64,000 nucleotides of DNA from Candidatus Woesearchaeota archaeon. Lineage in GTDB: Archaea > Nanobdellota > Nanobdellia > Woesearchaeales > JAGVYU01. The notes beneath the pieces were generated by a model. That model made no database searches and was not told where the DNA came from. It saw only the letters and a list, made by a program, of their open reading frames with translations. The translations under genes were made by a program, and so were the position numbers. Below are positions 26,306 to 62,792 of the stretch, piece by piece; within the stretch, counting starts at the first letter, position 1, and every line of letters begins with the position of its first letter. The stretch lies in contig JAGVYU010000061.1 in NCBI GenBank assembly GCA_018303105.1, forward strand, positions 3,109-67,108, given 5' to 3'.

Positions 26306-27388
26306 GTGACTACTATACAAATATTTAAAAAGAGGGAACACTTAGCAGCGCCTATGGTGGAAAAAACGTTCTTCAGGACAAGAAGTATCGCTGAGCGAAG
26401 GCATCTCCGCAGAAGGCGCGTCTATGGAGTAAAGAATATTGTTGAAAGAGTACTCCAAGAGATTGATCCAACAACAGACTGCCTTGAAGTCAGGGCGCAA
26501 TTGCTTCCCCCGACATTGCAGCATTTGCCATCTGCCATTGCATCGCGGAAGAACCTCAGGCATGGACATTATCTAAGGCTCCCCGTACCAAAAACATGGG
26601 AACAAGCGATTGCAATGAAGGAATCCCCGCTGGAACTTGTCGCACGCGAGATAGATAGCTTACACTTCGTCCAACCTGAAAACCTCCATTTTCTCGGATA
26701 CCAATGGACAGCTCCCCTCGGACGAGGAGTTGATAACAGGCCAAGGATGGCGCCATTCGCATTTATCGATGAGGCAGCGCGATTGCACGCATACATGCAC
26801 CAGGCGCCCGGAAGGGTGAAGGATTATTCTGCTGCCCAAAGAGTCCAGCGTGAAGGAGCGGTATTCATCGTCACGATTCCATCTAGAACAGAGAAAAAAC
26901 AACAGTACACGATACAACTCGCACATGTGCCAATACATGATGATCCGGCACGAAAAGCGTCCGTCTGGCTGCTTGGAACAACCCAACGAAGCGACGTGTC
27001 AGAACACGAGCTGCACCAGTTTGGATACCGGCTCATGCAGGACCAGAGGGGAAGCGACTTTTACATGTTCTATCCGCAAACCATTGCGGCATACTTTCTT
27101 ATAGCCGCAACGCTTGCGCGGCCACGCAAGGCAAATCTCATTCCAAGGCATACTTCACCATTTGCGATGCCGTCAAAAGAGCACGCTGAGTTTTATCGCA
27201 GGCTCCTTAACAATACGCTCATTTACGATGCCCAAGTAAAAGCGCCGGAACATCTCAGACCCTTGCATCTCGATGAAATCAGCAGGCTCATCGGAATCTA
27301 CATCGCGCGCGTTGGCGCTGAGCGCGCTATCTGGTACCAAGACCGCGACGGCGGCATCAAAGACTATGATTACAGCATACCACGATGA
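26306..27388 (+). CDS. Hypothetical protein, first gene of a GC-rich two-gene operon
   Basis: A 360-aa ORF with a 4-nt overlap (ATGA) onto the next gene. No recognised motif. Confidence 0.45.
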   Translation: MTTIQIFKKREHLAAPMVEKTFFRTRSIAERRHLRRRRVYGVKNIVERVLQEIDPTTDCLEVRAQLLPPTLQHLPSAIASRKNLRHGHYLRLPVPKTWEQAIAMKESPLELVAREIDSLHFVQPENLHFLGYQWTAPLGRGVDNRPRMAPFAFIDEAARLHAYMHQAPGRVKDYSAAQRVQREGAVFIVTIPSRTEKKQQYTIQLAHVPIHDDPARKASVWLLGTTQRSDVSEHELHQFGYRLMQDQRGSDFYMFYPQTIAAYFLIAATLARPRKANLIPRHTSPFAMPSKEHAEFYRRLLNNTLIYDAQVKAPEHLRPLHLDEISRLIGIYIARVGAERAIWYQDRDGGIKDYDYSIPR

Positions 27389-30351
27389 CGCTGCAGCACC
27401 TTGAGGCGATTGTTGAAGAAGTCGGGTATCGGTATGATCGACCGTGGATCTCGTTAAGAGGGCTTGGCGGATTCTATGTTGAAGGATATGAGCATTGGTT
27501 TTCCTCAAAACGGCTGACGCGCCGAGAAGCAAAGCAGCTCTATAAACGACTCAAGCAGAAGTTTGGAAGCCGTGTCATTTTTCCAGAGAGCGCAGAATGG
27601 GACGTGAGGAATAACTTCTACAACACGATTGTCGTACAGCTCCCGCGCTCCCAAAGCAGTCAACTCCCTGACGAATTCAGAGCTCAAGGAAGAGCCACTG
27701 CACATTACAAAAAACAGCTCAAGTACAGGACGATCACTCCGGGAATGGTTGCCGCGCTGGATGAACGCGCCGTTGAAATTCTCAAGAAGAGAGCAGAATT
27801 TGAACGAAAAAAAGAAGCAGTTGATCATCTTCTCAGTACAGCGCTCGCTCCTCACTATAAGGGGCAGGCTACTATGACTAAAGCAAAGGGAGATTGGTAT
27901 GACACCGTAACGCACGCATATGCTGGCGAATCCACCCTTGAGGAAGCTGCGTTGAATACTTCTTTTTTCAGAAAACTTGACACTGATCAACAACAAGAAC
28001 TCATGCGCATAACGCAAAAACTCTTTGAAGAGGTCATCTGTTTCAACAAACAACATGAAGCGTATGGCAAAAGAGTCATCACATTCAGGGATCGGAATCG
28101 ACAGAACGCGACCACGCAGAGAGCATACGAATTCCAGGCACATCTCAGAGAGGATGTGATTCAAAGCAAGCGACCCATGACCTTTGAGGAATGGCTGGGC
28201 CTCACCTTCCTCTTCAAGGATATTGAAATCCCAAGATTCACAGACGAAGATAGAGAAATTTCGCATGTCGGGATGCATTACATTGAGCAGGGCAAGCATG
28301 TCAAGGTCATTCACACGCTGCGCAACCCAGGCCGCAAACATATTAAGGGTTACAGCGTGCCTGTCCACGAAAACGAGGCAGCGCTCATTAACGCAGTCGT
28401 TGAATCCGTTCAAACCCATGACCCTTTCTGGTTCTCTGCATTCAACGCAAAATTTGATCTCATCCAATTGCGTGAAAATCTTTCTGGCGAGTGCTATGGT
28501 GTTTCAAACCGGCAGAGTCCTCCAACAAAAGATGTCGCAATCCAAATGTTTGAGCGCGTTGGAATTACGGGAAGGCAAGTCATCTGTGAATGGCTGCTCG
28601 CGCGCACTGGATACAAGGACCTACCGAACAGAAAATTCGAAATGGTCTCGCAAATGGCGCTCGGGGACGACGGATTGCACAAGAGCATCACCTATCCTGA
28701 ACAGGAAAGCCTCGAGCGTTTCGCAATGGGGCGAGGAAACCTCACAGACTCCGCCCGTGAGAAATTTCAAAAACGGTTTGGTAGGCTGCCGGGGCAATCC
28801 GTGCAGGATCGGCAGGATGCAGCATGCATGATTCTGGAATATCTAGTTGACGACGTTGAGGCGATGCCACGCTTCCTTGAAGAAACACCGTTCTTCAGGC
28901 ATGTACACGCAATCTCGAGCATTTTTGAGCTTGAGCCGACGCGCGCCGCGTACGGTCCCATGACTATGCGCAACGTGCTTGACCATTATTTCTGGAAAAA
29001 ATATCATGTTGATCCCGAGACCGTTTTCCCGATCACGAGCGCGACGATTGACTTCCAAGAGGGTCTAAAGGCTCATGTGGAAAAGCTTTTAGAAGAGCAT
29101 TTTCCCGTAAAACCGCAACAGGGCATTCATCATCATGTGGCAAAGGTACAGCTCGCACTTGGCCAGCTTTTTCTCCCCTTAATCAAACAAGGCATTGCTG
29201 ATGATCCGGATCTTTTGGCACGGGTCACTGAATTCGAGACGTATATCGGGGAGCAGCACGACGTGCGATCTCGCATGTTCCTTGAGGAATATCTTCTGAC
29301 ATGGGCAAATGAAATCTTGGTTGATTTCGCGCATTATGACCGGCCGCGCAGGCAGTTCGAGGAAAAACTGAAGACGTATGAAATCACGACGGGAGCGTTC
29401 GCGCAGCAATGGCATCGGATTACAGATGAACTCTTCGAGCGGGATCTTCAGTCGCTTCGACAAGGAAGAATCACGAAGAAAGCGTACAAAAAGCTCGAAG
29501 CGTATCATGATTTTGCGGATACGTACGGGCTTGATGAAGACGAGGCTAAAGAAATCTTGAACATCCGCGGCAGGATGATGACGGGCAAGGGGCTCGTCAT
29601 GGGAAGACATAACATAGACCCTGATGTTGTTCCCGCATTTCTCAAACAGCTCCAGTTCCAGGTCAATGTATTTATGCAGAGACATGGTATTGAACCCATA
29701 GGCCGAAGTTCCCATTTCTTTTATTTCATCAAATTTCCAGAAGGAGTAGACTCCCCACTCATCGTTGCTGATACTCTTGAGTCAGTTGTTGTCGCAGACA
29801 AAATATATTATCCAAAAGGAAGATGGATTTCAGGACTGCCACAGAGCGATGATCCAGCATATAATGCGTCTTTGTTTGAAATGCGCGTGTTTGGCGACTA
29901 TATTCGCGAACTCTGCCGCGGAGAAGTGCAACAAGCGGAATCACACATACAAAGGGAGCTGCTCGCATTTCCGCACAACACAGATCCGCACGAGCTTGTG
30001 GGAAAAATTAAATCGCGCAACACATTTTGGACATACGTGAAAAATCAGGAGGAAAAATTCATGTTTTTCGAGCCTGAAGAGTTCGCGAGAATTCATGAGA
30101 TTAACATGACTGAGATTTCAACGTATTCTGGTGTCAGCAAAGATGCCACATCGGGGCTTTTGATGTACACTGAGAACAATGAAGAGGGTGTTGCGATTCG
30201 TTCAACATTCATAGCTCCTCTGTTTGCTCTCGACATAGATTATGACCGATGGAGAACACATCTCAATGAGCGCTACAAAGAGATGAGCAGATGGAAACCA
30301 AAGAGGAAATTTGCAGAAGAAGGACAATTAGGTCTTACGTTGGTGCACTAA
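27385..30351 (+). CDS. Large (988 aa) hypothetical protein with DEDD-exonuclease-like motifs
   Basis: LTFLFKDIEIPRF is Exo I-like, with a DxE preceded by hydrophobic residues. About 75 aa downstream, WFSAFNAKFDLIQL is Exo II-like (NxxxFDxxxL). No Walker motifs are present. Codon usage is more GC-rich than the flanks. Confidence 0.5.
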   Translation: MTLQHLEAIVEEVGYRYDRPWISLRGLGGFYVEGYEHWFSSKRLTRREAKQLYKRLKQKFGSRVIFPESAEWDVRNNFYNTIVVQLPRSQSSQLPDEFRAQGRATAHYKKQLKYRTITPGMVAALDERAVEILKKRAEFERKKEAVDHLLSTALAPHYKGQATMTKAKGDWYDTVTHAYAGESTLEEAALNTSFFRKLDTDQQQELMRITQKLFEEVICFNKQHEAYGKRVITFRDRNRQNATTQRAYEFQAHLREDVIQSKRPMTFEEWLGLTFLFKDIEIPRFTDEDREISHVGMHYIEQGKHVKVIHTLRNPGRKHIKGYSVPVHENEAALINAVVESVQTHDPFWFSAFNAKFDLIQLRENLSGECYGVSNRQSPPTKDVAIQMFERVGITGRQVICEWLLARTGYKDLPNRKFEMVSQMALGDDGLHKSITYPEQESLERFAMGRGNLTDSAREKFQKRFGRLPGQSVQDRQDAACMILEYLVDDVEAMPRFLEETPFFRHVHAISSIFELEPTRAAYGPMTMRNVLDHYFWKKYHVDPETVFPITSATIDFQEGLKAHVEKLLEEHFPVKPQQGIHHHVAKVQLALGQLFLPLIKQGIADDPDLLARVTEFETYIGEQHDVRSRMFLEEYLLTWANEILVDFAHYDRPRRQFEEKLKTYEITTGAFAQQWHRITDELFERDLQSLRQGRITKKAYKKLEAYHDFADTYGLDEDEAKEILNIRGRMMTGKGLVMGRHNIDPDVVPAFLKQLQFQVNVFMQRHGIEPIGRSSHFFYFIKFPEGVDSPLIVADTLESVVVADKIYYPKGRWISGLPQSDDPAYNASLFEMRVFGDYIRELCRGEVQQAESHIQRELLAFPHNTDPHELVGKIKSRNTFWTYVKNQEEKFMFFEPEEFARIHEINMTEISTYSGVSKDATSGLLMYTENNEEGVAIRSTFIAPLFALDIDYDRWRTHLNERYKEMSRWKPKRKFAEEGQLGLTLVH

Positions 30352-42285: not shown

Positions 42286-44910
42286 GTGTGTAGATTGAGA
42301 CTAAGTAAAGCGATTAAGAAGGTCGCTGCAGTCGGCATTGGTGCATCAATGATCGGCGCTACACTATTCGGTGCAGCAGCAGCAAACCTAAGCGAGTATC
42401 CGTCGCCGTTCGTCATGGACGGTAAGTTTAACGGCATTCTCGTTGTAGGAACTGGAGGAACGGATGCGGCCGGACTCGCAGCCGATATTATCGGCGTGAC
42501 CGACATCATCAGCAGCCTGCAGTTCGCAAGCACGACACCTGGAACCGGTGCGAAGAAATCAGTAACGGTACAGGGAGACTCGTGGAAAGTAGGAACCGCA
42601 ACGAAGAAGCTTGAGATAAGCAACGAATGGACGAACAGTTCTGGAAGCCGAGAAAACTTCAAGAGCCAAATTGATTTCATCGATGATGGTGATTTGGACG
42701 CATTGAAGTCGGGAAGTGTTGACAACACGAAAGGAAACGCGCAGTACAACCAATACTTGCGATTCCGCAACTCAACAACCGGCGGCGCGAAAGACACAGG
42801 ATATGTCGTGTACAAGGAAGATAGCGACAACAATGTCGGAGACTTCCTCTTCTTTAAGAGCGGCCAAGAAATAGCGCAATATGAGATGGAGTTTACGTCT
42901 TCATTTGACTCAGACGTTGAAGATTCCGGTGGAGCAGTTACTTCAACGGGAACGTATCTGTCTGATTACGAAGATGAGACGATCACCCTCTTGGGCAAGG
43001 AGTACACAATCGTGAAAGCACGAGTACCTACCGCTGGAGCTTGGCATGGCATGGAGCTCACGTTGATGGGTGGAGCCGTAAAGGACATCCTCCAGGAAGG
43101 CGAGACAAAGACGTATACTATCGCTGGCAAGCCGTACGAGGTTACTGTTGACGCGATCACGGACCAAGGCACAATCATTGCCAAGTTCACCGTGAACGGC
43201 GAGTCGACAAAATCCATTTCGGATGGTGACTCGGACAAACTTGCAGACGGAACAGAGATTGGCGTAACCGATCTTATTCCGAACGAGGCAGGAGACGTCA
43301 CGCAGGATCTCGTTGAGTTCTTCATCGGAGCCCAAAAGGTCGTGTTGAAGGATACAAACATCAGCGTTGTTGGAACAGGAGACACCGCGATCAAGGTGAA
43401 TGATGAAAGCATTGATGGATCTCTTGTAACCATTAAGGGTACACCAACAGCAACTGAGAGCCAGGTCAACAACATCCTCGTGAACATGGATGCTGATGAT
43501 GACTACTATGTCCCTGCAGGCAAGAAACTCAGTGAAGTCATTGCAGCAGAGGGTGATGAGAAAGAAGTTCTCTTCACGAACAACTGGGACATCGAGTACC
43601 TTGGCTTAGAGGAAGCAGAGGCAGAAGAGATCAGCATCAAGACGAGCGGCAAAGACAAGTATAGGCTCAGCTTTATGGACTGGGGCGGAAATCTTGTCCA
43701 AGCACCATTAGCGTACGCATCCGCAGCAAGTGTCCTGAAGATGGGAGACGATGATGACGACTTTATCATCAACGAAAGCCGAAACGTCAGCAAAGATGAC
43801 TACTTCATCATAACGGACGCGACGAAAGATGCTGGAGAGCGACCAACGTACCTGCTGCGCTACAAGGGAGCTGACAAGTCAACGGACGAAAACCCGAAGT
43901 TTAAAATCGAGAACGTCGGTTCAAAAGAGACTCTAGAAAAGACGTACACAGCAGCTGGCGGATCAGCTACGGCTACCTTCAATATTGGAGGAGGCTCATA
44001 TAAGGTTGAGAACCACGAAGCCATTACAAGCAACGACTTCTCAATCAAGGTCGACCTTGATGGAGACGGAACCATTAACGAGTCGAACGCGGTCTCAATA
44101 ACCACACGTGCAGGTGCCCAAATAGCGATAGCGGGCAACCAGACAGGTGGAGCCGCGACAATTGATCTTGCCGATAAGCTAACGGTAACGATCAGCACAC
44201 CTGATTCGGACGACTACGAGGACCTGACACCAGCAAACATCCAATACAACATCTCAGCAACGTCTGATACAGAAGTTGACCTGACAAAGTTGGATGTCTA
44301 TAGCCTTGTGACACCAGACGACGAGGACAACGTGCAGTACGGATACAACTCACTTGGTGCGTTCATTAAATACACAAACCCATCAAGCGACCCCGATGAG
44401 CTCATCATCGACTATCCAGAAGCGCAGAGACTGCCTCAGGTGTACATCACCTCGGGAGCATCCTCGAGTTCAGGTGGCGTAGGAGCGGGCTCTGAAAACG
44501 TCAACATCAATAAGATTGAAGTTGGCGCTGCAAAGCTCGACAAGGACGTCAGCTCAGCGGATCTCGCGGCGAACAACGTGCTATCCATCGGTGGATCTTG
44601 CGTCAACGCTATCAGCGCAGAGATCATGGGTCTTGAAGCAGGAACCTGTGGCGCGGCCTCAGGAATCCCGCAAAACAAGGCTTTGATCAAGCTGTTCGAG
44701 AACGGTGAGAAGGTTTCCATGGTCATCGCAGGTTGGACTGCTGAAGACACACAGAGAGCATCGAGAGTCCTTGCAAATTACGAGGACTATGCACTCAGTG
44801 GCATGGAAGTCGAAGTGACTGGAACGAGCTTGTCTGACATCTCCGTAGGAGCACCTTCCCCAGTGATGGAAGAAGAAGAAGCCCCTGCTGAAGACGAAGC
44901 AGCTGAATAA
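42286..44910 (+). CDS. S-layer protein of the Methanococcales/Thermococcales type (S_layer_N plus S_layer_C)
   Basis: A signal peptide is followed by ILVVGTGGTDAAGLAADIIGVTDIISSL, the S_layer_N hallmark. The C-terminus carries ALIKLFENGEKVSMVIAGWTAEDTQRASRVLANYEDY, the S_layer_C hallmark, and an acidic tail. A GGAGGTG Shine-Dalgarno-like element lies 5 nt upstream. The start may instead be the TTG at 42295. Confidence 0.8.
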   Translation: MCRLRLSKAIKKVAAVGIGASMIGATLFGAAAANLSEYPSPFVMDGKFNGILVVGTGGTDAAGLAADIIGVTDIISSLQFASTTPGTGAKKSVTVQGDSWKVGTATKKLEISNEWTNSSGSRENFKSQIDFIDDGDLDALKSGSVDNTKGNAQYNQYLRFRNSTTGGAKDTGYVVYKEDSDNNVGDFLFFKSGQEIAQYEMEFTSSFDSDVEDSGGAVTSTGTYLSDYEDETITLLGKEYTIVKARVPTAGAWHGMELTLMGGAVKDILQEGETKTYTIAGKPYEVTVDAITDQGTIIAKFTVNGESTKSISDGDSDKLADGTEIGVTDLIPNEAGDVTQDLVEFFIGAQKVVLKDTNISVVGTGDTAIKVNDESIDGSLVTIKGTPTATESQVNNILVNMDADDDYYVPAGKKLSEVIAAEGDEKEVLFTNNWDIEYLGLEEAEAEEISIKTSGKDKYRLSFMDWGGNLVQAPLAYASAASVLKMGDDDDDFIINESRNVSKDDYFIITDATKDAGERPTYLLRYKGADKSTDENPKFKIENVGSKETLEKTYTAAGGSATATFNIGGGSYKVENHEAITSNDFSIKVDLDGDGTINESNAVSITTRAGAQIAIAGNQTGGAATIDLADKLTVTISTPDSDDYEDLTPANIQYNISATSDTEVDLTKLDVYSLVTPDDEDNVQYGYNSLGAFIKYTNPSSDPDELIIDYPEAQRLPQVYITSGASSSSGGVGAGSENVNINKIEVGAAKLDKDVSSADLAANNVLSIGGSCVNAISAEIMGLEAGTCGAASGIPQNKALIKLFENGEKVSMVIAGWTAEDTQRASRVLANYEDYALSGMEVEVTGTSLSDISVGAPSPVMEEEEAPAEDEAAE

Positions 44911-56398: not shown

Positions 56399-56632
56399 CT
56401 CATGAATAAGTTAAGCCTAGGAGTTTATAAAGGTATTGTTAATCTTAGTTAGGTTACCCTCTGACACTCCCAATCCGAAAAAACTCCGGTTTTTCCGTCG
56501 AAAACTATAAATAGCAGGAGGAACTTCTTGAAGGGATGGAACAAGTCGCTCTTCAAAAGTCAAAAGCGGCAAAGTGGCTCTATAAACGCCTTGAGGAATT
56601 CAAAAGGAACGCGCAGGATGAAATGTATGAGC

Positions 56633-56938
56633 TTAAGCATGGCGAATGCGTTCTCGTAAAGCATCGATAAGTTTATTCTGTGCCTTTGAGGAATGTTTCA
56701 TACGAATCTCTAGCAGATAGATAGAATCCCCCTCCACTTGAAAATATATTCTGAGAGGAGGCCGTTTGCACTTTGACTCATAGAGCTGATTATGAGCATC
56801 AAGAAGTTTTCCAGCTCGCGGACCGAGTGCATGTATCCGCAAGAGGTGTTTGCCGATGATCTCTTTGACTGTCGCACTTCTTGAGATTGCTTCCATCTGA
56901 CGCTGGACATGCTTATCGGTATATATCCTGAAAGGCAT
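56633..56938 (-). CDS. RelE/ParE-superfamily toxin-like protein with no recognisable antitoxin partner
   Basis: Size is about 100 aa. LRIYFQVEGDSIYLLEIRMKH resembles the conserved beta-strand core of RelE/ParE/HigB. No upstream antitoxin-sized ORF lies on the same strand. Confidence 0.45.
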   Translation of the reverse strand: MPFRIYTDKHVQRQMEAISRSATVKEIIGKHLLRIHALGPRAGKLLDAHNQLYESKCKRPPLRIYFQVEGDSIYLLEIRMKHSSKAQNKLIDALRERIRHA

Positions 56939-56999: not shown

Positions 57000-57860
57000 A
57001 TGGAATTGAAGAATCACCGGATACTTCGGAAATATAATGATATTTTTGAATTTATTCGAAAGTGCAATAAGAAAATCGCAGGTTTTGCTATGGCTGTTTT
57101 CACAGTATCCGAAACATATATATACAACGCTCTTAGAATTTTCTCAGGTGAGGATATGGCATTGCAACTGAAGAAAATACCGAAAAACCCGATTATTATC
57201 GAAGGATTCCCGGGATTTGGCCTTGTTGGCACGATCACGACGGAATTTCTCATGGATCATCTTAAAGTCGAAAAGATTGGAAAGATCACGTTTGACAACA
57301 TGCCTGCGATAGCGGCCGTGCATGAGGGCAAGCTTGTGGAGCCCATGGGAATCTTCTATAACAGCGATCATAATCTCGTGCTTGTGCACAGCATTCACGC
57401 TGCCCAGGGCAGCGAATGGGTAATGGCTGAGTCTATTGCGGAGCTCGCAAAAAAAGTCAGCGCGAAAGAAATCATCAGCATTGAGGGTGTAGGCACAGCA
57501 AATGCGACAGGTGAGAGAACTTTCTATTTTACGAAGAATCCTGAGTTGGAGAAGAAGCTCAAAGCGATTACGCAGCCTTTGAGGGAAGGGATTATTATGG
57601 GCGTAACAGGAGCTGTTTTGCTCCATGTGGATAAAGTGCCCATAAGCTGCCTTTTCGCCGAAACTACGGCAGAGATGCCTGACAGCAAGGCAGCTGCACG
57701 CATTATAGGGCTTCTTGACAAGTATCTTGGACTTAAGATAGATACTGGGCCATTGTTGAAACAGGCAGAGCAGTTTGAGGCGAAGCTTAAGGGAATACTC
57801 TCACAAAGCAAGCAAGTTGAGGAAATTAGCGAAAAAAAGAAGATGAGCTATGTAGGTTAA
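57000..57860 (+). CDS. PAC2-family protein (proteasome assembly chaperone-like). The true start is probably an internal Met.
   Basis: PIIIEGFPGFGLVGTITTEFL is the PAC2 hallmark G.PG.G.VG. A hydrophobic-Tyr near the C-terminus (SYVG) is weakly reminiscent of HbYX. Confidence 0.5.
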   Translation: MELKNHRILRKYNDIFEFIRKCNKKIAGFAMAVFTVSETYIYNALRIFSGEDMALQLKKIPKNPIIIEGFPGFGLVGTITTEFLMDHLKVEKIGKITFDNMPAIAAVHEGKLVEPMGIFYNSDHNLVLVHSIHAAQGSEWVMAESIAELAKKVSAKEIISIEGVGTANATGERTFYFTKNPELEKKLKAITQPLREGIIMGVTGAVLLHVDKVPISCLFAETTAEMPDSKAAARIIGLLDKYLGLKIDTGPLLKQAEQFEAKLKGILSQSKQVEEISEKKKMSYVG

Positions 57861-58497
57861 TTTTCTATTAAGCTTATTTTTTGTTTTAATAATGGCTATT
57901 AGCAAGTTTCTTATTATTTATTCATGGTGCCTAACTTCGCATATTGGCTCACTTTTCATATTGGGATATGCAAGACTGCTGCGTATGCTGAGAATCGCAG
58001 ATTGTTTGTCTTCAAATATTTTTTTACGCTAGTTATTAGTAAAACATGATTTTGGCATCGGGCATAATATCACTAGTTATTAGTATAAGATACCCAATAA
58101 ACTTTTCCACTAATTGTTATAGGAATTGTTCTTGATATATTCGATATTGTGCTTCTAATTTGATTCTGCTTTAAACTAGTTTTTGCTCTCACTTTTTATG
58201 CGTAAACAGCAAATTCAAACAATTGTTTTCATTATTGTAATTTATTAAATTATTTGTAGAAGAATTAGTAATAGATTATTTAAGTTATGATTAAAATATT
58301 TAGACTATTATATTTTTGAAAATTCCCTTTTTTAAGGCACATTGTATGCACATCCATGTCCAGAGTCACTTGGCTTCAAAATGTGGTTTATCGTCGACAA
58401 AAGGCACTGCCCAAAAAGCTTAAATAGGAGAAAGAATCAGCAGGCATTGGTAAGTACAAGTATTCTTGAGTGATTAACCATGAGGTGAGTTAAGTTG

Positions 58498-58980
58498 ATG
58501 AGTACTAATCCATTCGAGCCGCAAAGTGCACTAGCTAGGGAAATGTCCCGCCTGAGCCCTGTAGGAACTGTTTCAGGTGCAGCACAACCATCCGCCCAAA
58601 ATACGCTGGGATCGTCAAAGGATGCTGCGCAAAATCCGAACATTGGTCTCCTCGTAACGAGGATAAACGTTCTCGAGATGAAAATGCAGGAAATCCTCAT
58701 GAAAGCGCAGCAGCAGGAACAGGCGTTTCAGAGAAAGCTAGGGGAAGTGGAAACAATGCTACAGGCTGTCCAGAATATCCAGGACCAGCCTCAGAGGATT
58801 GAGATAAGCGCGGCAGCGCCTCCACAAGCAGCTCCGGCATCAGCAGTTACTGTTATGCCTCCCCCTCCAAAGACAACGGAAGGCGCCCAAATGCAGGGAA
58901 GGCCGCAGCGTGACCAAATGGATCCAAACCTGTTCAGCATAAACAAATTCTTCCACGCATCAAACATGAAGAAGAAGTAA
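58498..58980 (+). CDS. Hypothetical Q/P-rich protein with a central coiled coil
   Basis: ORF following a 600-bp AT-rich non-coding block. It is low-complexity, and INVLEMKMQEILMKAQQQEQAFQRKLGEVETMLQAVQNIQ is heptad-like. Confidence 0.35.
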   Translation: MSTNPFEPQSALAREMSRLSPVGTVSGAAQPSAQNTLGSSKDAAQNPNIGLLVTRINVLEMKMQEILMKAQQQEQAFQRKLGEVETMLQAVQNIQDQPQRIEISAAAPPQAAPASAVTVMPPPPKTTEGAQMQGRPQRDQMDPNLFSINKFFHASNMKKK

Positions 58981-59014
58981 CATATATTGTGTTTTTTGTT
59001 AAAAATTAAAAATA

Positions 59015-59110
59015 TGGTAAAACGCAACATAACTACCACTTTTGTTGCGTTTTTAGGGGGTTTTTTGGCAGAAACGCAACATATATATACAAGTGTTGCG
59101 TAAATTGTTG
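59015..59110. promoter_or_regulatory. Inverted-repeat cluster (AACGCAACA / TGTTGCGTT) immediately upstream of the recombinase gene
   Basis: IR1 is AACGCAACA (59021-59029) paired with TGTTGCGTT (59043-59051). IR2 is AACGCAAC (59073-59080) paired with GTTGCG (59095-59100). A further half-site TTGTTGC is at about 59106. Confidence 0.45.
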
Positions 59111-59137
59111 CTATGCAAGATATAGTTTCCAGCATAT

Positions 59138-59806
59138 ATGTGGGTTGTTTTCATGGCTAGAACGTATAATGAGTATTATCTCGGATGGCAGGAGATTAAC
59201 AGGATCATAGCCTGTGCCAAGAACCTCAAAGAGCGGGTAATTCTAAAGATTCTGGCGAGAACAGGCATGCGAAGATTCGAGCTTGCAAATCTTCGCGTAA
59301 AAGACGTCGATTTTGACCGCAAGCGCATCTATATCAGCAAGGGAAAAGGAGGAACTGACGAGGATCCAAAATCGAGGATCGTTCCTATCGACGATGACAC
59401 CCTTCAAGATATCAAGTTTTATCTCGAAGGACGCCGGGCCGGAATATTGATCCAGAGCAATAAAAAAGCGCATGACGGCATCTCTTTATCCGCAATAAAC
59501 AGGATTACCGAAGGGGCTGCTGAACGGGCAGGAATCCGGAATCCTAATCCAAAGCTTAAGCATCTCAATCCCCATATCTTCAGGCACAGTTTCTCACGGC
59601 TCAGCCTCATGGAGGGCATTCCCTTCAACATTGTGCAGAAAATTGTTGGACACGCCGATGCGCGAACAACGCTGCAAATGTACGGAGTACCGTCGATAAA
59701 TGACGCTCAGCATATGTACAACGAAAAGCTGACTATGCGCTTTCACCAAAAAGTGAGCCTTGAGGAAGATAACAAGCTTTCAAAATTTACGTCTGACAGA
59801 TCGTAA
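59138..59806 (+). CDS. Minimal tyrosine recombinase/integrase (catalytic domain only)
   Basis: The catalytic residues are R in TGMRRFEL, K in ISKGKGG, HxxR in HIFRHSF, the second R in HADARTT, and the nucleophile Y in LQMYG. No N-terminal SAM-like core-binding domain is present. Confidence 0.8.
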   Translation: MWVVFMARTYNEYYLGWQEINRIIACAKNLKERVILKILARTGMRRFELANLRVKDVDFDRKRIYISKGKGGTDEDPKSRIVPIDDDTLQDIKFYLEGRRAGILIQSNKKAHDGISLSAINRITEGAAERAGIRNPNPKLKHLNPHIFRHSFSRLSLMEGIPFNIVQKIVGHADARTTLQMYGVPSINDAQHMYNEKLTMRFHQKVSLEEDNKLSKFTSDRS

Positions 59807-59882
59807 TCCTGTTTTCTTACTAGTAATTAAGAGAAAGTAGCTAAATGCATATTATAATAAATGCTTAAATATTTTAATAATA

Positions 59883-60434
59883 TTATCCCCAGTTTTGAAT
59901 GTTCTGCTGCTCAATATGTAAGAGATTAGACTTTGCCTGGACGGTCTTAAAATCTCGATCCAGACAGAAATAGACCGTATTACGCGTATATTTTTTCAAA
60001 ATAGGGATTCCTTTTCGCATGAGGTTGCCAATATAATCCTGAGCGGTTTTATCCGTAACGCCCAGCCCACGAGCAAGATCGTGATAAGTGAGAGTTCCCT
60101 TTGCTTCTTCCAATGCGTACAAAACCATGAAGATTTCCTTCTCCTGCTTGGAAAGCGGCTCAATATTGTATCTGGGAGCATTTTCTGGGACAAAAGTATG
60201 ATTCTTTTCAAGAAATATCTGTATTTTATCAATTCTTTCAGCTAATTTATCTAATTTTTGCTCTATTTGAGAAAAAAGCTCAAAATTCGCCTGTATTTCA
60301 TTAGTGTTCTCATTAATGGCATTTAAATGATCATCAAATTGTTCCTGAATACTTTCAAGAGCACGCTTCAGCTGCTGCGCAGCATCATTCACGGCGTCGT
60401 GATCTAAAACCTCTTTCCTTGAAATATTAAACAA
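59883..60434 (-). CDS. Coiled-coil protein with a C-terminal winged helix-turn-helix (putative regulator)
   Basis: N-terminal heptads are followed by TLTYHDLARGLGVTDKTAQDYIGNLMRKGIPILKK, read as helix-turn-helix plus wing. Confidence 0.45.
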   Translation of the reverse strand: MFNISRKEVLDHDAVNDAAQQLKRALESIQEQFDDHLNAINENTNEIQANFELFSQIEQKLDKLAERIDKIQIFLEKNHTFVPENAPRYNIEPLSKQEKEIFMVLYALEEAKGTLTYHDLARGLGVTDKTAQDYIGNLMRKGIPILKKYTRNTVYFCLDRDFKTVQAKSNLLHIEQQNIQNWG

Positions 60435-60524
60435 TGAAATCTTACCACCCCAACACTCTAAGCGCTTCTAAAATTCGCTGGTTTATATAGTTTTTGAAAT
60501 AAAGAGGAATTTCATTAATACTGG

Positions 60525-61310
60525 CTATTGGGCATGTTTAATGAGCTTATAGAAGTAAAGTTTTTCCTTCCCCTGTTTAACAACCTCGATTTCTTCCAAG
60601 GCCTCAAGCTCATCTAGAATGCGATAAAAGGAGCTTTTAGACGCTATTCCCTGTTCCTCAACGATCATTTCCCTTAATTTGAGGGCGGAAATTTGCTCAT
60701 ACTTGCGGATATATGAAACCAAGAGGTTTTTGACATACTCCTTTGACCTCTGTGTAATTTTTTTGATAAGTCTCTCCCGCAGGGGCATTCTTTTAGGTAT
60801 TGTGGTTTTTTCAATTTGATCAACTTTCTGCCGCAACTCTTTGATCTCGCTCAGATACCCAATCTGAGCTGCCATACCAAATTGATTGTGTGTGCCGAAT
60901 TTTTCAAGTTTAGCATTTATACTAATTACTTCAGAATCGATTTCCTTAATTTTCCTAAGCTCTTTTTCGTTCGAATAATAATAATCAACCAGTTGTTTTA
61001 GCTGAGATTGCATGTGAGGAATTTCGCGAACTAATTTGCGCAGATCCTCAATCTCACTTCTGACTTTTCTTACTTCATTTGCATGCTCTCCGATCTGAAT
61101 TTTTGCATGATTGATCAACGCTTCCTGTGATGAAAGTTTTGAAGCGCTTGATTGAACGGATTCTATCAGCATGCCTTGGTTATCATACAGCAGCTGCATC
61201 CAGGAAGCGACGCTCTGAACGTCTTGCTTCACATTCGCAAATGCGAGTTGAAGAGACTGCTGCATAGCGCGCAGTTCCTGAGCCTCTCTTTTTTTTGAAA
61301 ATAATAGCAT
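60525..61310 (-). CDS. Coiled-coil protein with a C-terminal winged helix-turn-helix (paralogous architecture)
   Basis: About 180 aa of coiled coil are followed by SKSSFYRILDELEALEEIEVVKQGKEKLYFYKL. The start codon abuts the iteron array. Confidence 0.45.
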   Translation of the reverse strand: MLLFSKKREAQELRAMQQSLQLAFANVKQDVQSVASWMQLLYDNQGMLIESVQSSASKLSSQEALINHAKIQIGEHANEVRKVRSEIEDLRKLVREIPHMQSQLKQLVDYYYSNEKELRKIKEIDSEVISINAKLEKFGTHNQFGMAAQIGYLSEIKELRQKVDQIEKTTIPKRMPLRERLIKKITQRSKEYVKNLLVSYIRKYEQISALKLREMIVEEQGIASKSSFYRILDELEALEEIEVVKQGKEKLYFYKLIKHAQ

Positions 61311-61640
61311 TTTTTCTCATTCCCAGTGTCATTTTGGGAATATTATGGGACTATTCTAGGACTATTCTGGGAATGTCTTTTACGTCAATAAATCAAGGTT
61401 GTTTATATACTTTTTGGGAATGTTATGGGAAATTCCTGGGAATATCATGGGAATGAGCCAGTGAATACGGTTTTCCCAATGAGATTAGACGACGTAAGAT
61501 CCCTTGTTCTTTGTTCTTAATCCCATTGGGAATGTGCTGGGAATGAGGCTTATCGACGAGGAATTACGTGCAATCACGCTGTAAACAGCGTTGGGAATGA
61601 AACTGGGAATGATAAGTATCGACGAGCTTATCAGTTTTAA
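61305..61640. repeat. Iteron array: at least 13 copies of (C/T)TGGGAAT(G/A) in both orientations with about 10-11 bp phasing, plus two copies of a TATCGACGAG...GTGCAATCACG module
   Basis: Examples are cattcccag (61309), ttgggaatatt / atgggactatt / ctaggactatt / ctgggaatgtc spaced 10-11 nt apart (61334-61366), and ttgggaatgtt / atgggaaattc / ctgggaatatc / atgggaatgag (61403-61446). Further copies are ttcccaatgag (61453), cccattgggaatgtgctgggaatgagg (61513-61538), and ttgggaatgaaactgggaatgataag (61581-61604). TATCGACGAG occurs at about 61542 and 61607, and TGCAATCACG at about 61560 and 61645. Confidence 0.65.
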
Positions 61641-62147
61641 TGGCGCAAGCATGTGCAATCACGAGGAAGGGAAAAATACGAGGGGGAACCTTCTGATTAA
61701 TCAACCAGAGACATATATGCACAAAAATGTGCAAGATATGGATTTGTTTACTATTTCTAAAATAACGGTGGGAAGATGACGCGCGTGTGAAATTTATGCT
61801 TTGAAACTTTAAGAGTATGTGCGTTACGTAGATCATAATGTCATCAGCTAAATTGAACTCTTGAATGCTTTTAATCCATTGAGTATACGAAACTATTTAA
61901 AGGGGGATATGGCTGTTTTTAAGGAGTGTGTGGTGGAAAAGTGAGTGCAACAGCCATAAGAAAGGAGAAGGACAGAAGCGCAATAATTGCTTTTAATACC
62001 GATTCTACTAATGATTATATAATGGGATCAAGAAAGGTTATATCTTTGAGTACAAAAAGTGAGAGTACATGCTGGGTGCTTTGCAATGAAGAGCCATGGA
62101 AACATTAAGCGATATGGCACAGAGAGTTATACTAATATTTAGCAGAA

Positions 62148-62792
62148 GTGAATGTGATGGATCAAAAAACCATGTCAAAAGGGGCTTTGGCAATAGCTCT
62201 AAGTAAACTAGATGTTTTTCCCGAAGCAAAAGTGAGAGTTGAGCAATACCCCACAGACCCTGAAGTTGCCGCTGAAGTGCTCTGGGATGCCCATATTGCC
62301 GGGGACATGGAAAACAAGGCGATATTGGACCTCGGAGCCGGAACGGGCATCCTAGGCCTTGGCTGCCTCCTTTTGGGAGCTCGAAAAGTGACATTCATCG
62401 ACGCTGATCAAGCGGCTCTGGCCATCGCTGAAAAGAACTATGCTAAGCTCAAAAGTGAGATTTCAGGAAAAGCTGCCTTTGTTGCGATGGATATCCACAA
62501 ATTCCAAGAGGCTGCAGACGTCGTCGTCGAGAACCCGCCCTTCGGCACAAAGACAAAGCACGCTGACAGGGAGTTTCTGGAGAAAGCATTCACATTGGCT
62601 CCCGTGATTTACACGTTTCATAAGGCATCAACAAGCGCGTTTATCAATCAGCTCGCTACGCAGAGAGGGTTTAACGTCGAGAAAACACAGCGTTTTGCGT
62701 TTCCGCTCAAAAGGACAATGCCGTTCCACGCCAAGAATATCAAGAGGATCTCCGTGGACTGCTTCCGATTACGGAAACCACAACGCTTTTAA
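62148..62792 (+). CDS. METTL5-like putative rRNA/RNA N6-adenine methyltransferase (COG2263 type)
   Basis: Motif I is ILDLGAGTGILGLG. The NPPF catalytic motif is VVENPPFGTK. Confidence 0.7.
   Translation: MNVMDQKTMSKGALAIALSKLDVFPEAKVRVEQYPTDPEVAAEVLWDAHIAGDMENKAILDLGAGTGILGLGCLLLGARKVTFIDADQAALAIAEKNYAKLKSEISGKAAFVAMDIHKFQEAADVVVENPPFGTKTKHADREFLEKAFTLAPVIYTFHKASTSAFINQLATQRGFNVEKTQRFAFPLKRTMPFHAKNIKRISVDCFRLRKPQRF

What the first reader, a model, noticed from the sequence alone, without database searches (positions are those of the whole stretch)
57870..61900. Probable integrated plasmid/virus-like element: minimal tyrosine recombinase, inverted repeats, two coiled-coil/wHTH paralogues and an iteron array
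The element lies between two conserved genes, a PAC2-like gene on the left and a METTL5-like methylase plus rpoL on the right. Reading from left to right it contains:
- a 600-bp AT-rich non-coding block at about 28% GC;
- a Q/P-rich coiled-coil ORF;
- a cluster of AACGCAACA/TGTTGCGTT inverted repeats;
- a 222-aa catalytic-domain-only tyrosine recombinase;
- two divergently similar proteins, each a long coiled coil with a C-terminal winged helix;
- an array of phased TGGGAATG iterons.

This combination of recombinase, DNA-binding regulators, iterons and an AT-rich unwinding-like block looks like a small integrated replicon or a replicon-derived regulatory island. I did not recognise any replication initiator or capsid gene.
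Basis: partly seen in the sequence, partly recalled or inferred. Interest (0 to 1): 0.7.

Follow-up and report, generated by a model that had tools for sequence, protein, structure and literature searches.

The report
Flippable minimal recombinase module in Woesearchaeota
The flagged 4 kb is not an integrated plasmid or virus: it is a conserved chromosomal neighbourhood of a DPANN archaeon (Woesearchaeota) holding two unrelated units, one an optional 0.8-kb cassette (a stripped-down recombinase gene plus two palindromic sites) that has flipped orientation many times in evolution, the other a pair of DNA-binding protein genes with their own phased operator array.

Summary
They do not form one mobile replicon.

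**Unit A (59019-59806).** This is a catalytic-domain-only tyrosine recombinase of about 217 aa, with the R-K-H-R-H-Y residues invariant. Two dyad sites (11-nt arms, 12-13-nt spacers) precede it, and the proximal one encloses the gene's own TATA box. The sites-plus-gene cassette occurs at the same place, near PAC2, in dozens of Woesearchaeota. It is the best-conserved protein in the neighbourhood. Its orientation has changed at least 10 times on the recombinase tree. It is missing from three more distant lineages that keep the same synteny. Its 37-44 % relatives in CPR and other bacteria sit in mobile-element contexts, and many carry a similar upstream dyad.

**Unit B (59883-61610).** This comprises two unrelated coiled-coil and winged-helix proteins and an 11-bp-phased TGGGAMT array around promoter-like TATA boxes. 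It is conserved even where the recombinase is absent.

**Interpretation.** No replication initiator, capsid gene, att direct repeats, or close viral or plasmid relatives were found. My best reading (confidence about 0.4) is a self-contained recombinase-plus-site module of mobile-element ancestry, retained by the host like XerS/difSL and autoregulated at its promoter. It is a new variant of a known kind.

The parts
57861..58494 (.). AT-rich non-coding spacer between PAC2 and ORF161. It lies in the interval that varies between species.
   Evidence: GC is 0.25-0.31. The block is conserved between strains of this species (few differences). In other species the same interval holds 0.6-6 kb of unrelated genes. 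No ORB or iteron-like repeats were found.
58290..58302 (+). Left copy of the palindromic motif 'm3' (ATTAAAATATTTA).
   Evidence: It is an exact 13-nt inverted partner of 59866-59878. The motif family GATTAAAnnTTTTAAT is rare (0.03-0.2 per kb). It recurs in 1-3 copies beside the rec cassette in relatives.
58498..58980 (+). ORF161 (160 aa from the ATG). A species-specific small protein with a central coiled coil and low-complexity Q/P/A-rich ends.
   Evidence: No Pfam, NCBIfam or PHROG family matches. tblastn finds no homologue in the first 74 fetched loci. The substitution pattern between strains is that of a coding sequence, and the gene diverges fast: 86 % nt identity over the ORF, while the flanks show only scattered differences.
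59019..59053 (+). Site 1: dyad AAAACGCAACA - 13 nt (TAACTACCACTTT) - TGTTGCGTTTT. This is the candidate core recombination site.
   Evidence: It is conserved in position and sequence in the 21 main-clade relatives aligned; its spacer consensus is TTCTACTAC. The dyad symmetry is selected: 78.5 % of cells pair against 33-49 % in slid controls, and 18 double-change cells are reached by 0 of 500 shuffles. Perfect dyads in the analogous position, 80-93 nt upstream, occur in about 8 of 25 bacterial relatives. The site is absent where rec is absent.
59071..59104 (+). Site 2: dyad GAAACGCAACA - 12 nt (TATATATACAAG) - TGTTGCGTAAA. Its spacer is the TATA box of the recombinase promoter, so this is the candidate autoregulatory operator.
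   Evidence: The consensus in relatives is AAAACACAACA-TTTAAATACAAG-TGTTGCGTTTT, lying 20-60 nt before the start codon and immediately before the start codon in the distant clade.
59138..59806 (+). Minimal tyrosine recombinase consisting of the catalytic domain only. The likely start is 59153 (217 aa).
   Evidence: PF00589 matches at 1.4e-27. The XerA_Arch model scores 126.5 bits, below its cut-off of 220, and covers positions 95-263 only. The PDB 4a8e match covers residues 106-263. The catalytic R, K, H-x-x-R, H and Y residues are invariant in 20 homologues. At least 172 homologues were detected; nearly all of the 120 listed are 200-226 aa, and every source name given is Woesearchaeota or Nanoarchaeota.
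59866..59878 (-). Right copy of motif m3, 5 nt beyond the ORF183 stop codon.
   Evidence: The m3 region stays with the ORF183 3' end whichever way the rec cassette points.
59883..60434 (-). ORF183: a 65-aa helix plus a MarR/ArsR-like winged helix. The N-terminal motif HLxAINENTNEIQ is invariant.
   Evidence: AF2 pLDDT is 83 and Foldseek E-values are about 1e-3 to MarR and ArsR proteins. The weak Pfam hits to HTH_11 and HTH_24 are below cut-off. Homologues are also present in rec-less loci.
60525..61310 (-). ORF261: a helix of about 110 aa plus further helices and a C-terminal winged helix with an invariant recognition helix (SKSSFYRIL).
   Evidence: AF2 pLDDT is 85. The best Foldseek hit is the Hop2 winged helix (6.8e-4), followed by MarR, PadR and Fur. 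The search found 115 homologues; every one that a source names is from Woesearchaeota or Nanoarchaeota.
61319..61610 (+). Phased operator-like array of TGGGAMT. It holds one inverted copy (61319-61325), four copies at 61335-61374, a TATA-like box at 61401-61410, four copies at 61415-61454, and pairs at 61527-61544 and 61592-61610. The last pair is 12 bp apart; the others are 11.
   Evidence: The layout (inverted copy, TATA, about 4 repeats, TATA, 4-5 repeats) is clear in most main-clade relatives examined. Arrays of the same motif are present in the rec-less lineages L160-L162.
61937..62239 (+). Three copies of AAAAGTGAG(A/T)G (61937, 62055, 62228) between the array and the methylase gene. The last copy is inside the methylase coding sequence.
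   Evidence: See (repeat D7). Two to four copies are present in every relative examined, including the rec-less loci. The role is unknown.

Best explanation
The region is a conserved chromosomal neighbourhood of a Woesearchaeote containing two independent units.

**Unit A: the recombinase cassette.** This is a self-contained cassette of about 0.8 kb: site 1, site 2, then the minimal tyrosine recombinase gene.
- I propose that the recombinase binds as a dimer to the 11-nt inverted arms of both sites.
- Site 2 wraps the gene's own BRE/TATA. Occupancy there would repress transcription, giving autoregulation.
- Site 1, with its conserved asymmetric spacer, would be the crossover site.
- The cassette descends from minimal mobile-element integrases, but the host has kept it. 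The most likely host use is resolving chromosome dimers or multimers, in the way the XerS/difSL and XerH/difH 'gene next to its site' modules work.
- Because gene and site travel together, the cassette's orientation in the chromosome is functionally neutral. That would explain why repeated inversions were tolerated.

**Unit B: the wHTH pair.** ORF261 and ORF183 are coiled-coil winged-helix DNA-binding proteins. They regulate themselves, and probably the divergent methylase-rpoL operon, through the phased TGGGAMT array that surrounds the promoter-like TATA boxes.

**Shown:** the anatomy, conservation, optional presence, inversions, and co-occurrence of the sites with the recombinase.

**Inferred:** who binds what, catalysis, and the cellular role.
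For: **Host retention of the cassette**
- The cassette is at the same locus in dozens of species.
- The recombinase is the most conserved protein in the neighbourhood. In L007, for example, identities to the window are rec 69 %, PAC2 57 %, methylase 54 %, rpoL 51 %, ORF183 47 %, ORF261 32 %.
- All six catalytic residues are invariant.
- The best family and structure matches are archaeal XerA.

**The sites belong to the recombinase**
- The two-site layout accompanies the gene in the 27 archaeal loci inspected; it is clear in at least 21 main-clade loci, is altered in L026, and has changed arms in L032-L036.
- The arms change together in the divergent clade L032-36 (GCAACA becomes GTAACA in most half-sites).
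- The dyad symmetry is statistically supported.
- Several bacterial relatives, which lack ORF183 and ORF261, also carry a perfect dyad 80-93 nt upstream; a TAnTA-like spacer core recurs in several.
- Rec-less loci keep ORF183, ORF261 and the array but have no such dyads.

**Autoregulation**
- The site 2 spacer is a TTTAAATA-type TATA box in nearly every species.
- There is precedent for tyrosine recombinases that repress their own synthesis (PMC10516654).

**Module precedent**
- xerS lies immediately next to difSL, which has an unusually long 11-bp central region. difH lies near xerH (PMC5357621).

**Orientation neutrality**
- Only sites plus coding sequence (about 750 bp) are inverted between sister taxa.
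- Fitch parsimony on 50 distinct recombinase sequences gives at least 10 orientation changes.

**Unit B**
- The array layout around TATA boxes is conserved.
- The TGGGAMT motif is conserved across lineages, in parallel with the invariant recognition helix of ORF261.
Against: - Nothing shows that these genomes lack a canonical XerA, or that the cassette is single-copy.
- The protein lacks the core-binding domain that every characterised Xer protein has, and it scores below the XerA cut-off.
- The sites are 11-12/13-11, not the archaeal dif layout of 11-6-11 (PMC2958812, PMC8371274).
- Three lineages with the same synteny have no cassette. The function is therefore dispensable, or supplied from elsewhere in the genome.
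- The right arm of site 1 is degenerate in several species: L007, L009, L011 and L014.
- The L032-36 recombinases group with the bacterial mobile-element forms in a neighbour-joining tree. That hints at repeated acquisition rather than pure vertical descent.
- The position relative to the replication terminus could not be assessed. GC skew across the window is uninformative.
Confidence: 0.4

Rival explanations
1. The cassette is a resident minimal integrative element, or an integration platform. Under this reading, sites plus recombinase form a tiny selfish or semi-domesticated mobile module. It excises and re-enters the same locus in either orientation, or it services mobile DNA that lands in the neighbouring variable interval.
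For: - The closest non-Woesearchaeal relatives (37-44 % identity, 190-206 aa) sit beside a terminase and a ParB-methylase, rve, DDE and Mutator transposases, or Prim-Pol/DUF3987. Several carry a similar upstream dyad.
- Rec-less variants of the locus exist.
- The L032-36 clade may be a separate acquisition at the same PAC2-adjacent spot.
- Only the cassette flips.
- The interval between PAC2 and the cassette is highly variable. It holds Fic, LigD_N, TrmB and radical-SAM genes in B3_Woes, and 11 small unknown co-directional ORFs in L078.
Against: - There is no second site or direct repeat at the far end of the cassette.
- The variable DNA always lies on the PAC2 side, whichever way site 1 points. 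It is therefore not bracketed by the site.
- Sequence conservation is very high over a depth at which rpoL is only about 50 % identical.
- All contigs of the same species show one orientation and one location.
- There are no close relatives in IMG/VR or plasmid collections.
Confidence: 0.25
2. The cassette is a self-inverting genetic switch. Under this reading the minimal recombinase, which is about the size of FimB/FimE, inverts its own cassette and so changes transcription of itself or its neighbours (phase variation).
For: - The size and domain content resemble the roughly 200-aa tyrosine invertases. There are weak NCBIfam hits to 'tyrosine-type DNA invertase' (3.8e-6).
- There are at least 10 orientation changes, and the closest pair with opposite orientations shares 90 % amino-acid identity.
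- In the window, an exact 13-nt inverted repeat (m3) brackets ORF161, the sites and rec.
- Contig L006 ends exactly at the left m3 copy.
Against: - The flanking inverted repeats are not consistent between species, and the AT-rich context yields chance repeats.
- m3 usually lies on one side only, next to ORF183.
- No population shows both orientations in assemblies.
- No outward promoter is evident.
- The invertase models score far below their cut-offs (26.7 bits against 221).
Confidence: 0.12
3. The protein is mainly a DNA-binding regulator that uses a recombinase fold, like MrpR/YopR of phage SPbeta. Sites 1 and 2 would then be operators only.
For: - Site 2 overlaps the BRE/TATA of its own gene.
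- Many homologues carry a weak precomputed hit to PF22823, MrpR_C_cat.
- There is precedent in PMC10516654.
Against: - MrpR has lost its catalytic residues, whereas here R-K-H-R-H-Y are invariant in all homologues. That argues for selection on catalysis.
- In my own Pfam scans of the window protein and of four family members, only PF00589 passes the cut-off.
Confidence: 0.08
4. The whole interval 57870-61900 would be an integrated plasmid or virus-like replicon, with the TGGGAATG repeats as iterons and the AT-rich block as an unwinding element.
For: The region combines a recombinase, DNA-binding proteins, a repeat array and an AT-rich block.
Against: - The synteny is conserved across the phylum-level group, including in genomes without the recombinase.
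- The array sits between divergent promoter-like TATA boxes of host genes.
- There is no initiator or structural gene and no PHROG hit for ORF161, ORF183 or ORF261.
- There are no att repeats.
- There are no close viral or plasmid relatives.
Confidence: 0.03

Closest known systems
XerS/difSL (streptococci, lactococci) and XerH/difH (epsilon-proteobacteria) single-recombinase modules
   Same: - One tyrosine recombinase gene lies immediately beside its own dyad site.
- The site is atypical, with a long central region: 11 bp in difSL (PMC5357621) and 12-13 nt here.
- In both cases the module could have been acquired as a unit.
   Different: - XerS and XerH are about 355 aa and have a core-binding domain. 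The protein here is about 217 aa and is a catalytic domain only.
- Here there are two sites rather than one, and one of them encloses the promoter.
- The NCBIfam XerS model scores 33.8 bits against a cut-off of 267.
- Archaea have no FtsK partner.
Archaeal XerA/dif (Pyrococcus, Thermoplasma, Sulfolobus)
   Same: - XerA is the best sequence and structure match: NF040815 at 1.3e-36 and PDB 4a8e at 2.3e-23.
- It has the same catalytic residues.
- It acts without partner proteins in vitro (PMC2958812).
   Different: - The roughly 100-aa N-terminal domain is lacking, and the score is below the family cut-off (126.5 against 220).
- XerA's dif is 11-6-11 and is not next to xerA (PMC2958812). Here the sites are 11-12/13-11 and abut the gene.
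FimB/FimE-type tyrosine DNA invertases
   Same: - The proteins are about 200 aa and are essentially catalytic domain only.
- They are associated with inversion of a short DNA segment.
   Different: - fimB and fimE lie outside the segment they invert, which is bounded by 9-bp inverted repeats. Here the gene itself is inverted, and no consistent bounding repeat was found.
- Sequence similarity is weak: 26.7 bits against a cut-off of 221.
Cre/loxP of phage P1
   Same: - The site is lox-like, about 34-35 bp, and can be read as 13-nt arms with an 8-nt asymmetric spacer.
- The site is close to the recombinase gene.
- Cre/loxP serves in multimer resolution (from my own knowledge of P1 biology).
   Different: - Cre is 343 aa and has an N-terminal DNA-binding domain.
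- There is no specific sequence relationship beyond the superfamily.
MrpR (YopR) of SPbeta
   Same: - It is a tyrosine-recombinase fold that binds operator sites and represses transcription (PMC10516654).
- There are weak PF22823 hits on homologues.
   Different: - MrpR is 320 aa and catalytically dead.
- This family keeps every catalytic residue.
ParR/parC of plasmid R1 (comparison for the TGGGAMT array only)
   Same: Two blocks of 11-bp direct repeats flank a promoter, placing the repeats on one face of the helix. The R1 layout is from my own knowledge.
   Different: - There is no ParM or ParA-type NTPase gene nearby.
- The proteins here are winged-helix, not ribbon-helix-helix.
- The context is chromosomal and conserved with rpoL.

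Membership tests
Tyrosine recombinase superfamily (PF00589) | Pfam catalytic-domain model above the gathering score | tested here: met
   The score is 97 bits against a cut-off of 27.1, E = 1.4e-27.
Tyrosine recombinase superfamily (PF00589) | Catalytic R-K-H-x-x-R-H/W-Y residues | tested here: met
   R45/R46, K70, H146, R149, H172 and Y182 are invariant in 20 homologues. They align with the XerA catalytic motifs.
Archaeal XerA (NCBIfam NF040815) | Whole-protein score at or above the curated cut-off | tested here: not met
   The score is 126.5 bits against a cut-off of 220. Only model positions 95-263 are matched.
Archaeal XerA (NCBIfam NF040815) | N-terminal core-binding domain of about 100 aa | tested here: not met
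   The protein begins about 10-15 residues before the catalytic domain. Nearly all listed homologues are 200-226 aa. The 157 nt upstream are occupied by sites 1 and 2 and encode no remnant of such a domain.
Archaeal XerA (NCBIfam NF040815) | Cognate dif of 11-nt arms and a 6-nt spacer, located in the termination region | tested here: not met
   The adjacent sites are 11-13-11 and 11-12-11. The published dif layout is in PMC2958812 and PMC8371274. Terminus location is not testable with a 64-kb window.
Archaeal XerA (NCBIfam NF040815) | Sole chromosomal Xer-type recombinase of the genome | not testable with these tools
   Whole genomes could not be scanned. Within the window and within each fetched archaeal locus that carries it, only one copy is found.
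Single-recombinase Xer modules (XerS/difSL, XerH/difH) | Recombinase gene immediately adjacent to its dyad site | tested here: met
   Site 1 lies about 100 nt and site 2 about 50 nt upstream of the start codon in the window. The two-site layout is seen in the 27 archaeal loci inspected, altered in L026 and with changed arms in L032-L036.
Single-recombinase Xer modules (XerS/difSL, XerH/difH) | Sequence membership of the XerS or XerH families | tested here: not met
   The XerS model NF003462 scores 33.8 bits against a cut-off of 267. XerH (PDB 5jjv) matches at E = 1.9e-4 only.
Single-recombinase Xer modules (XerS/difSL, XerH/difH) | Demonstrated dimer-resolution activity at the site | not testable with these tools
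   This requires in-vitro or in-vivo recombination assays.
Tyrosine-type DNA invertases (FimB/FimE; NF007370, NF007371) | Model score above the cut-off | tested here: not met
   The scores are 26.7 and 22.8 bits against cut-offs of 221 and 222.
Tyrosine-type DNA invertases (FimB/FimE; NF007370, NF007371) | Invertible segment bounded by inverted repeats | tested here: inconclusive
   The window has an exact 13-nt inverted pair at 58290 and 59866. L007 has a 24-nt pair at 79 % identity. Other loci show no consistent pair, and no inverted copy of the site 1 core lies downstream of rec.
Tyrosine-type DNA invertases (FimB/FimE; NF007370, NF007371) | Both orientations present within one population | tested here: not met
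   All contigs carrying the identical or near-identical recombinase have the same arrangement. Assemblies could hide minority forms.
Integrated plasmid or provirus | Replication, packaging or structural hallmark genes | tested here: not met
   There are no such hits in Pfam, NCBIfam or PHROGs for ORF161, ORF183 or ORF261.
Integrated plasmid or provirus | Direct repeats (attL/attR) at the borders | tested here: not met
   No meaningful direct repeat pairs 57.87 kb with 61.9 kb.
Integrated plasmid or provirus | Empty-site variants in relatives | tested here: inconclusive
   No relative lacks the 4-kb block as a whole. Three lineages lack only the rec cassette and keep ORF183, ORF261, the array and PAC2.
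Iteron-controlled replicon | Iterons linked to a Rep initiator gene and an AT-rich DUE (unwinding element) | tested here: not met
   No initiator was found. The repeats flank TATA boxes between divergent host genes and are conserved chromosomally. The AT-rich block is about 3 kb away, on the other side of four genes.

The most novel reading that the evidence does not exclude
The sites-plus-recombinase cassette would be a complete, portable site-specific recombination system of only about 0.8 kb, shared between ultra-small archaea (DPANN) and bacteria (CPR and others). A catalytic-domain-only tyrosine recombinase would work without any core-binding domain on long-spacer dyad sites. It would control its own promoter from inside one of those sites. 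In Woesearchaeota it would serve as the chromosome's dimer-resolution system, while still able to flip or relocate itself.
Probability: 0.15. Interest if true: 0.75.

Novelty: new variant of a known kind. Interest (0 to 1): 0.5.

Why it matters
- If the cassette is functional as proposed, it would show that a tyrosine recombinase can recognise and recombine a specific site with its catalytic domain alone.
- It would identify a candidate chromosome-resolution system for a major DPANN lineage.
- It would provide a very small natural recombinase-plus-site pair, with the promoter built into the site, that could be tested as a genetic tool.
- The repeated inversion of a single gene cassette at a fixed locus is a clean natural experiment on recombinase-driven micro-rearrangement.
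- Separately, the ORF261/ORF183 proteins and their phased array define an uncharacterised, lineage-wide regulatory unit next to the rpoL gene.
- As a scan result, it also corrects a plausible-looking 'integrated element' call.

Tried and rejected
- **att-type direct repeats at the borders of 57.87-61.9 kb.** None were found.
- **A third copy of the AACGCAACA arm near the cassette.** None is present in the window or in eight relatives.
- **An inverted copy of the site 1 core downstream of rec.** It appears in 3 of 30 loci at loose stringency, and the three are weak 2-mismatch matches.
- **Consistent inverted repeats bracketing the cassette.** They are inconsistent across species.
- **m3 as a general terminator motif.** Only the two copies beside the cassette occur in the 64-kb window, and the degenerate pattern as a whole is not above chance. 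Its role remains unresolved.
- **Cassette exchange at site 1 between strains.** Rejected. The strain differences lie in two low-complexity patches inside ORF161, not at a boundary defined by site 1.
- **Paralogy of ORF183 and ORF261.** Not supported.
- **Rfam and tRNA scans.** No RNA family matches anywhere in the window, and no tRNA integration target lies nearby. The only tRNA is at 40051.
- **GC skew as a terminus or origin signal.** Uninformative.
- **Orc1/Cdc6 among the ten largest window ORFs.** None found.
- **Viral and plasmid collections.** No close relatives.
- **Literature on DPANN or Woesearchaeota Xer systems.** Nothing was found in the held library.

Full report
**Source and checks on the observation.**
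- The window matches a 63-kb ENA metagenome scaffold carrying the same genes. NCBI labels the identical recombinase 'Candidatus Woesearchaeota archaeon'.
- The AT-rich gap (57861-58494) has 25-31 % GC.
- AACGCAACA/TGTTGCGTT occurs four times in 64 kb against 0.36 expected, and none of 100 shuffles reaches four. Three of the four lie within 61 bp.
- Eleven of the 24 TGGGAMT matches in the window fall within 61319-61610, where about 0.07 would be expected. Copies are arranged 4+4+2+2; spacing is 11 bp except in the last pair, which is 12 bp.
- The 222-aa ORF is a tyrosine recombinase (PF00589, 1.4e-27). It matches only the catalytic half of archaeal XerA: model positions 95-263 at 126.5 bits against a cut-off of 220, and PDB 4a8e residues 106-263.
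- ORF183 and ORF261 are each a long helix followed by a winged helix (AF2 pLDDT 83 and 85; Foldseek hits to MarR, ArsR, PadR and Hop2-WH). They have no detectable sequence similarity to each other (E = 0.33), so 'paralogues' is not supported.

**The neighbourhood is conserved, not inserted.**
- The recombinase has at least 172 detected homologues at 57-77 % identity, nearly all 200-226 aa, and every source name given is Woesearchaeota or Nanoarchaeota. Some lie on contigs of 0.4-1.0 Mb.
- I fetched 68 genome loci and 80 metagenome loci, plus several by exact look-up. They show the same order: PAC2, a variable interval, rec, ORF183, ORF261, the array, the methylase, rpoL, ORF149.
- The recombinase is the best-conserved protein of the set. 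In L007, identities are rec 69 %, PAC2 57 %, methylase 54 %, rpoL 51 %, ORF183 47 % and ORF261 32 %.
- None of ORF161, ORF183 or ORF261 matches a viral family.
- IMG/VR holds one 30 % relative of the recombinase, and PLSDB holds nothing above 33 %.
- No direct repeats bracket the region.
- The 4-kb 'integrated replicon' reading therefore fails.

**Two sites travel with the recombinase gene.**
- Upstream of the gene, the 27 archaeal loci inspected show a paired-dyad layout. It is clear in at least 21 main-clade loci, is altered in L026, and has changed arms in L032-L036.
- Site 1 is AAAACGCAACA, 12-13 nt with a TTCTACTAC core, then TGTTGCGTTTT. A T-rich linker of about 20 bp follows in most loci.
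- Site 2 is AAAACRCAACA, TTTAAATACAAG, then TGTTGCGTTTT. Its spacer is an archaeal TATA box 20-60 nt before the start codon.
- In the window these are 59019-59053 and 59071-59104.
- The dyad symmetry is under selection: 78.5 % of cells pair against 33-49 % when the partner is slid. Eighteen cells change on both sides, which none of 500 shuffles reach.
- In the divergent clade L032-36 most half-sites carry GTAACA/TGTTAC.
- The exact arm occurs nowhere else near the gene.

**The sites belong to the recombinase, and the array to the wHTH genes.** Two comparisons separate the units.
- *Bacterial relatives.* Relatives of the same minimal architecture (190-206 aa, 37-44 % identity) occur in Andersenbacteria, other Patescibacteria, Omnitrophota and Chloroflexota, and on unbinned metagenome contigs. 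They have no ORF183 or ORF261 nearby. About 8 of 25 still carry a perfect dyad 80-93 nt upstream of the start, with lineage-specific arms. Several have a second dyad at the start.
- *Rec-less lineages.* Three more distant Woesearchaeota lineages (L160 on a 580-kb contig, L161 on 323 kb, and L162) keep rpoL, ORF261-like, ORF183-like and PAC2 in order. They also keep the TGGGAMT arrays and the AAAGTGAG motifs. They have no recombinase in any frame and no dyads of this kind.
- The region is therefore a composite of an optional recombinase cassette and a core regulatory unit.

**The cassette flips.**
- Relative to all its neighbours, the recombinase points one way in the window and in 22 further contigs. 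It points the other way in 48 contigs.
- blastn between sister taxa shows that the inverted DNA is just site 1, site 2 and the coding sequence, about 750 bp.
- The two states are interleaved on neighbour-joining trees. Fitch parsimony on 50 distinct sequences needs at least 10 changes. The closest opposite pair shares 90 % amino-acid identity.
- All contigs of the window's own species show one orientation, so there is no sign of rapid phase variation.
- I could not find a consistent pair of inverted sites at the cassette's ends.
- A rare palindromic motif (GATTAAAnnTTTTAAT, 'm3') sits beside the cassette on the ORF183 side in most main-clade loci. In the window it forms an exact 13-nt inverted pair at 58290 and 59866. 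Whether it is a crossover site, a terminator or a protein-binding site is open.

**Ancestry.**
- The bacterial relatives lie next to a terminase and a ParB-methylase (L030), an rve integrase (L031), a DDE transposase (L037), a Mutator transposase (L156) and Prim-Pol/DUF3987 (L145). These are mobile-element contexts.
- A profile search of 1.84 billion representative proteins finds 87 clusters at E <= 1e-30. Most are 185-250 aa, and some are 650-700 aa with two recombinase domains.
- In a neighbour-joining tree the L032-36 recombinases group with the bacterial forms rather than with the main Woesearchaeal clade. This rests on weak methodology. It suggests either an old split or a second acquisition at the same PAC2-adjacent spot.
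- The interval between PAC2 and the cassette varies from 0.6 to over 6 kb, with unrelated cargo.

**Mechanism proposed.**
- The recombinase binds as a dimer to both dyads.
- At site 2 it covers its own BRE/TATA and represses itself. Recombinases repressing their own synthesis are noted in PMC10516654.
- Site 1 is the crossover site.
- Strong purifying selection, intact catalytic residues and a fixed locus argue that the host uses the activity.
- The closest functional model is the XerS/difSL and XerH/difH type of module, where the gene abuts its site and difSL has an unusually long 11-bp central region (PMC5357621).
- A module whose gene and site move together works in either orientation. That would make the inversions neutral.
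- Against this reading: the protein fails the XerA family test on two defining features (cut-off score, N-terminal domain). The sites are not 11-6-11 (PMC2958812, PMC8371274). The cassette is dispensable in some lineages. I could not check for a second Xer or for terminus location.
- I therefore give it 0.4. The alternatives are a resident mobile or integration module (0.25), a self-inverting switch (0.12), a pure regulator (0.08) and the original replicon model (0.03).

**Unit B.**
- In most main-clade relatives the array has a conserved layout: an inverted copy, a TATA box facing ORF261, about four 11-bp repeats, a second TATA box with a purine-rich BRE facing the methylase side, then four or five more repeats. 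The window has lost the first TATA box.
- The TGGGAMT motif persists across lineages in which ORF261 is only about 30 % identical overall but keeps an invariant recognition helix (SKSSFYRIL). I infer that ORF261 is the array binder.
- ORF183's helix is more variable. In L028 a different 11-bp-phased motif (CACTCATTA) precedes the ORF183-like gene.
- These are correlations, not tests.

**ORF161 and the AT-rich block.**
- ORF161 is a genuine gene but species-specific.
- Between strains that are otherwise nearly identical, it differs in two low-complexity patches and by an in-frame 21-nt indel.
- The AT-rich block has no repeats or genes that suggest an origin. It occupies the interval that is variable between species.

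**Verdict.**
- What remains is a moderately interesting, undescribed variant of a known kind: a minimal tyrosine-recombinase-plus-sites cassette with a built-in promoter, retained by the host yet repeatedly inverted and occasionally absent. It sits beside an unrelated lineage-specific regulator pair.

Noticed in passing
window 58290-58302 and 59866-59878; L013 about 1140-1215, L009 about 9745-9820, L082 29-100: A rare palindromic motif, GATTAAAnnTTTTAAT ('m3'), occurs in 1-3 copies right beside the recombinase cassette. It usually lies at the 3' end of ORF183, whichever way the cassette points. In the window an exact 13-nt inverted pair brackets ORF161, the sites and rec. Contig L006 begins exactly at the left copy.
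   Followed up: partly
window 61937-61948, 62055-62066, 62228-62239; same interval in L009, L011, L012, L015, L024, L160-L162: The motif AAAGTGAG(A/T)GTT is repeated 2-4 times between the array and the methylase gene in every lineage examined. One copy lies inside the methylase 5' coding region (the KVRVEQY motif). In L011 it is part of a tandem unit of about 85 nt with a hairpin (AACCGTTATAATGCGGTT).
   Followed up: no
window 61551-61560 and 61617-61626; L022, L025, L027 and L028 downstream of rec: A (T/C)CGACG(A/G) motif recurs. In several relatives it lies about 12-18 nt upstream of a TTTATATA box, as if it were a promoter-upstream element. In the window it is part of a larger twofold repeat (CTGGGAATGAnnnnTATCGACGAG ... 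GTGCAATCACG).
   Followed up: no
L096 4873-4991 (same as L013 and L095); L014 upstream of rec: An insertion of about 150-200 nt, bounded by a 19-nt inverted repeat (GCAAAGCCAAGCTATGCCA / TGGCAATGCTTGGCTTTGC), sits between site 2 and the recombinase start codon in some species. It could be a MITE-like element or a structured 5' leader.
   Followed up: no
L005 4997-5096 versus window 57611-58008: One near-identical strain (about 98-99 % nt identity) has about 400 bp replaced by about 100 bp. This removes the 3' end of the PAC2 gene, and no PAC2 gene is called there.
   Followed up: no
window 58550-58650 and 58800-58900 (inside ORF161): ORF161 is a hotspot of divergence between strains: 86 % nt identity over the ORF, against only scattered differences in the flanks. 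The differences are confined to its low-complexity ends, and the pattern is that of a coding sequence.
   Followed up: yes
L160 8135-8638, L161 8321-8824, L162 8462-9004: In the recombinase-less lineages a conserved 167-180-aa protein lies convergent with the ORF183-like gene, overlapping its 3' end in L160 and L161. It looks helix-turn-helix-like (…GIKRQTMYDHLRRWLDLQILKKTSFV…), has a C-terminal charged helix, and has no Pfam hit on record.
   Followed up: no
L078 11485-17413: Directly after the recombinase gene there are eleven small co-directional ORFs, none with a confident Pfam hit (one weak DnaJ-type zinc-finger hit), where other species have PAC2. This may be an integrated element in the variable interval.
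   Followed up: no
Representative proteins P0274, P0275, P0281, P0286 and others: Proteins of about 650-700 aa with two, and sometimes three, matches to the minimal-recombinase profile. They look like tandem-fused recombinase domains.
   Followed up: no
window 56560-56938 (minus strand): A 101-aa ORF with a weak ParE-toxin match (E = 0.022) lies next to an overlapping 34-aa gene called in the source assemblies. This may be a toxin-antitoxin pair just upstream of PAC2.
   Followed up: no
window 15271-20067, 27385-30351, 42286-44910: Three very large ORFs (1598, 988 and 874 aa) have no Pfam match at E <= 1e-5.
   Followed up: no
L028 7360-7560: A different 11-bp-phased repeat (CACTCATTA / CACTTACTA) lies upstream of the ORF183-like gene in a distant clade. 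This suggests that phased operator arrays are a general feature of these wHTH proteins, with specificity that co-evolves.
   Followed up: partly
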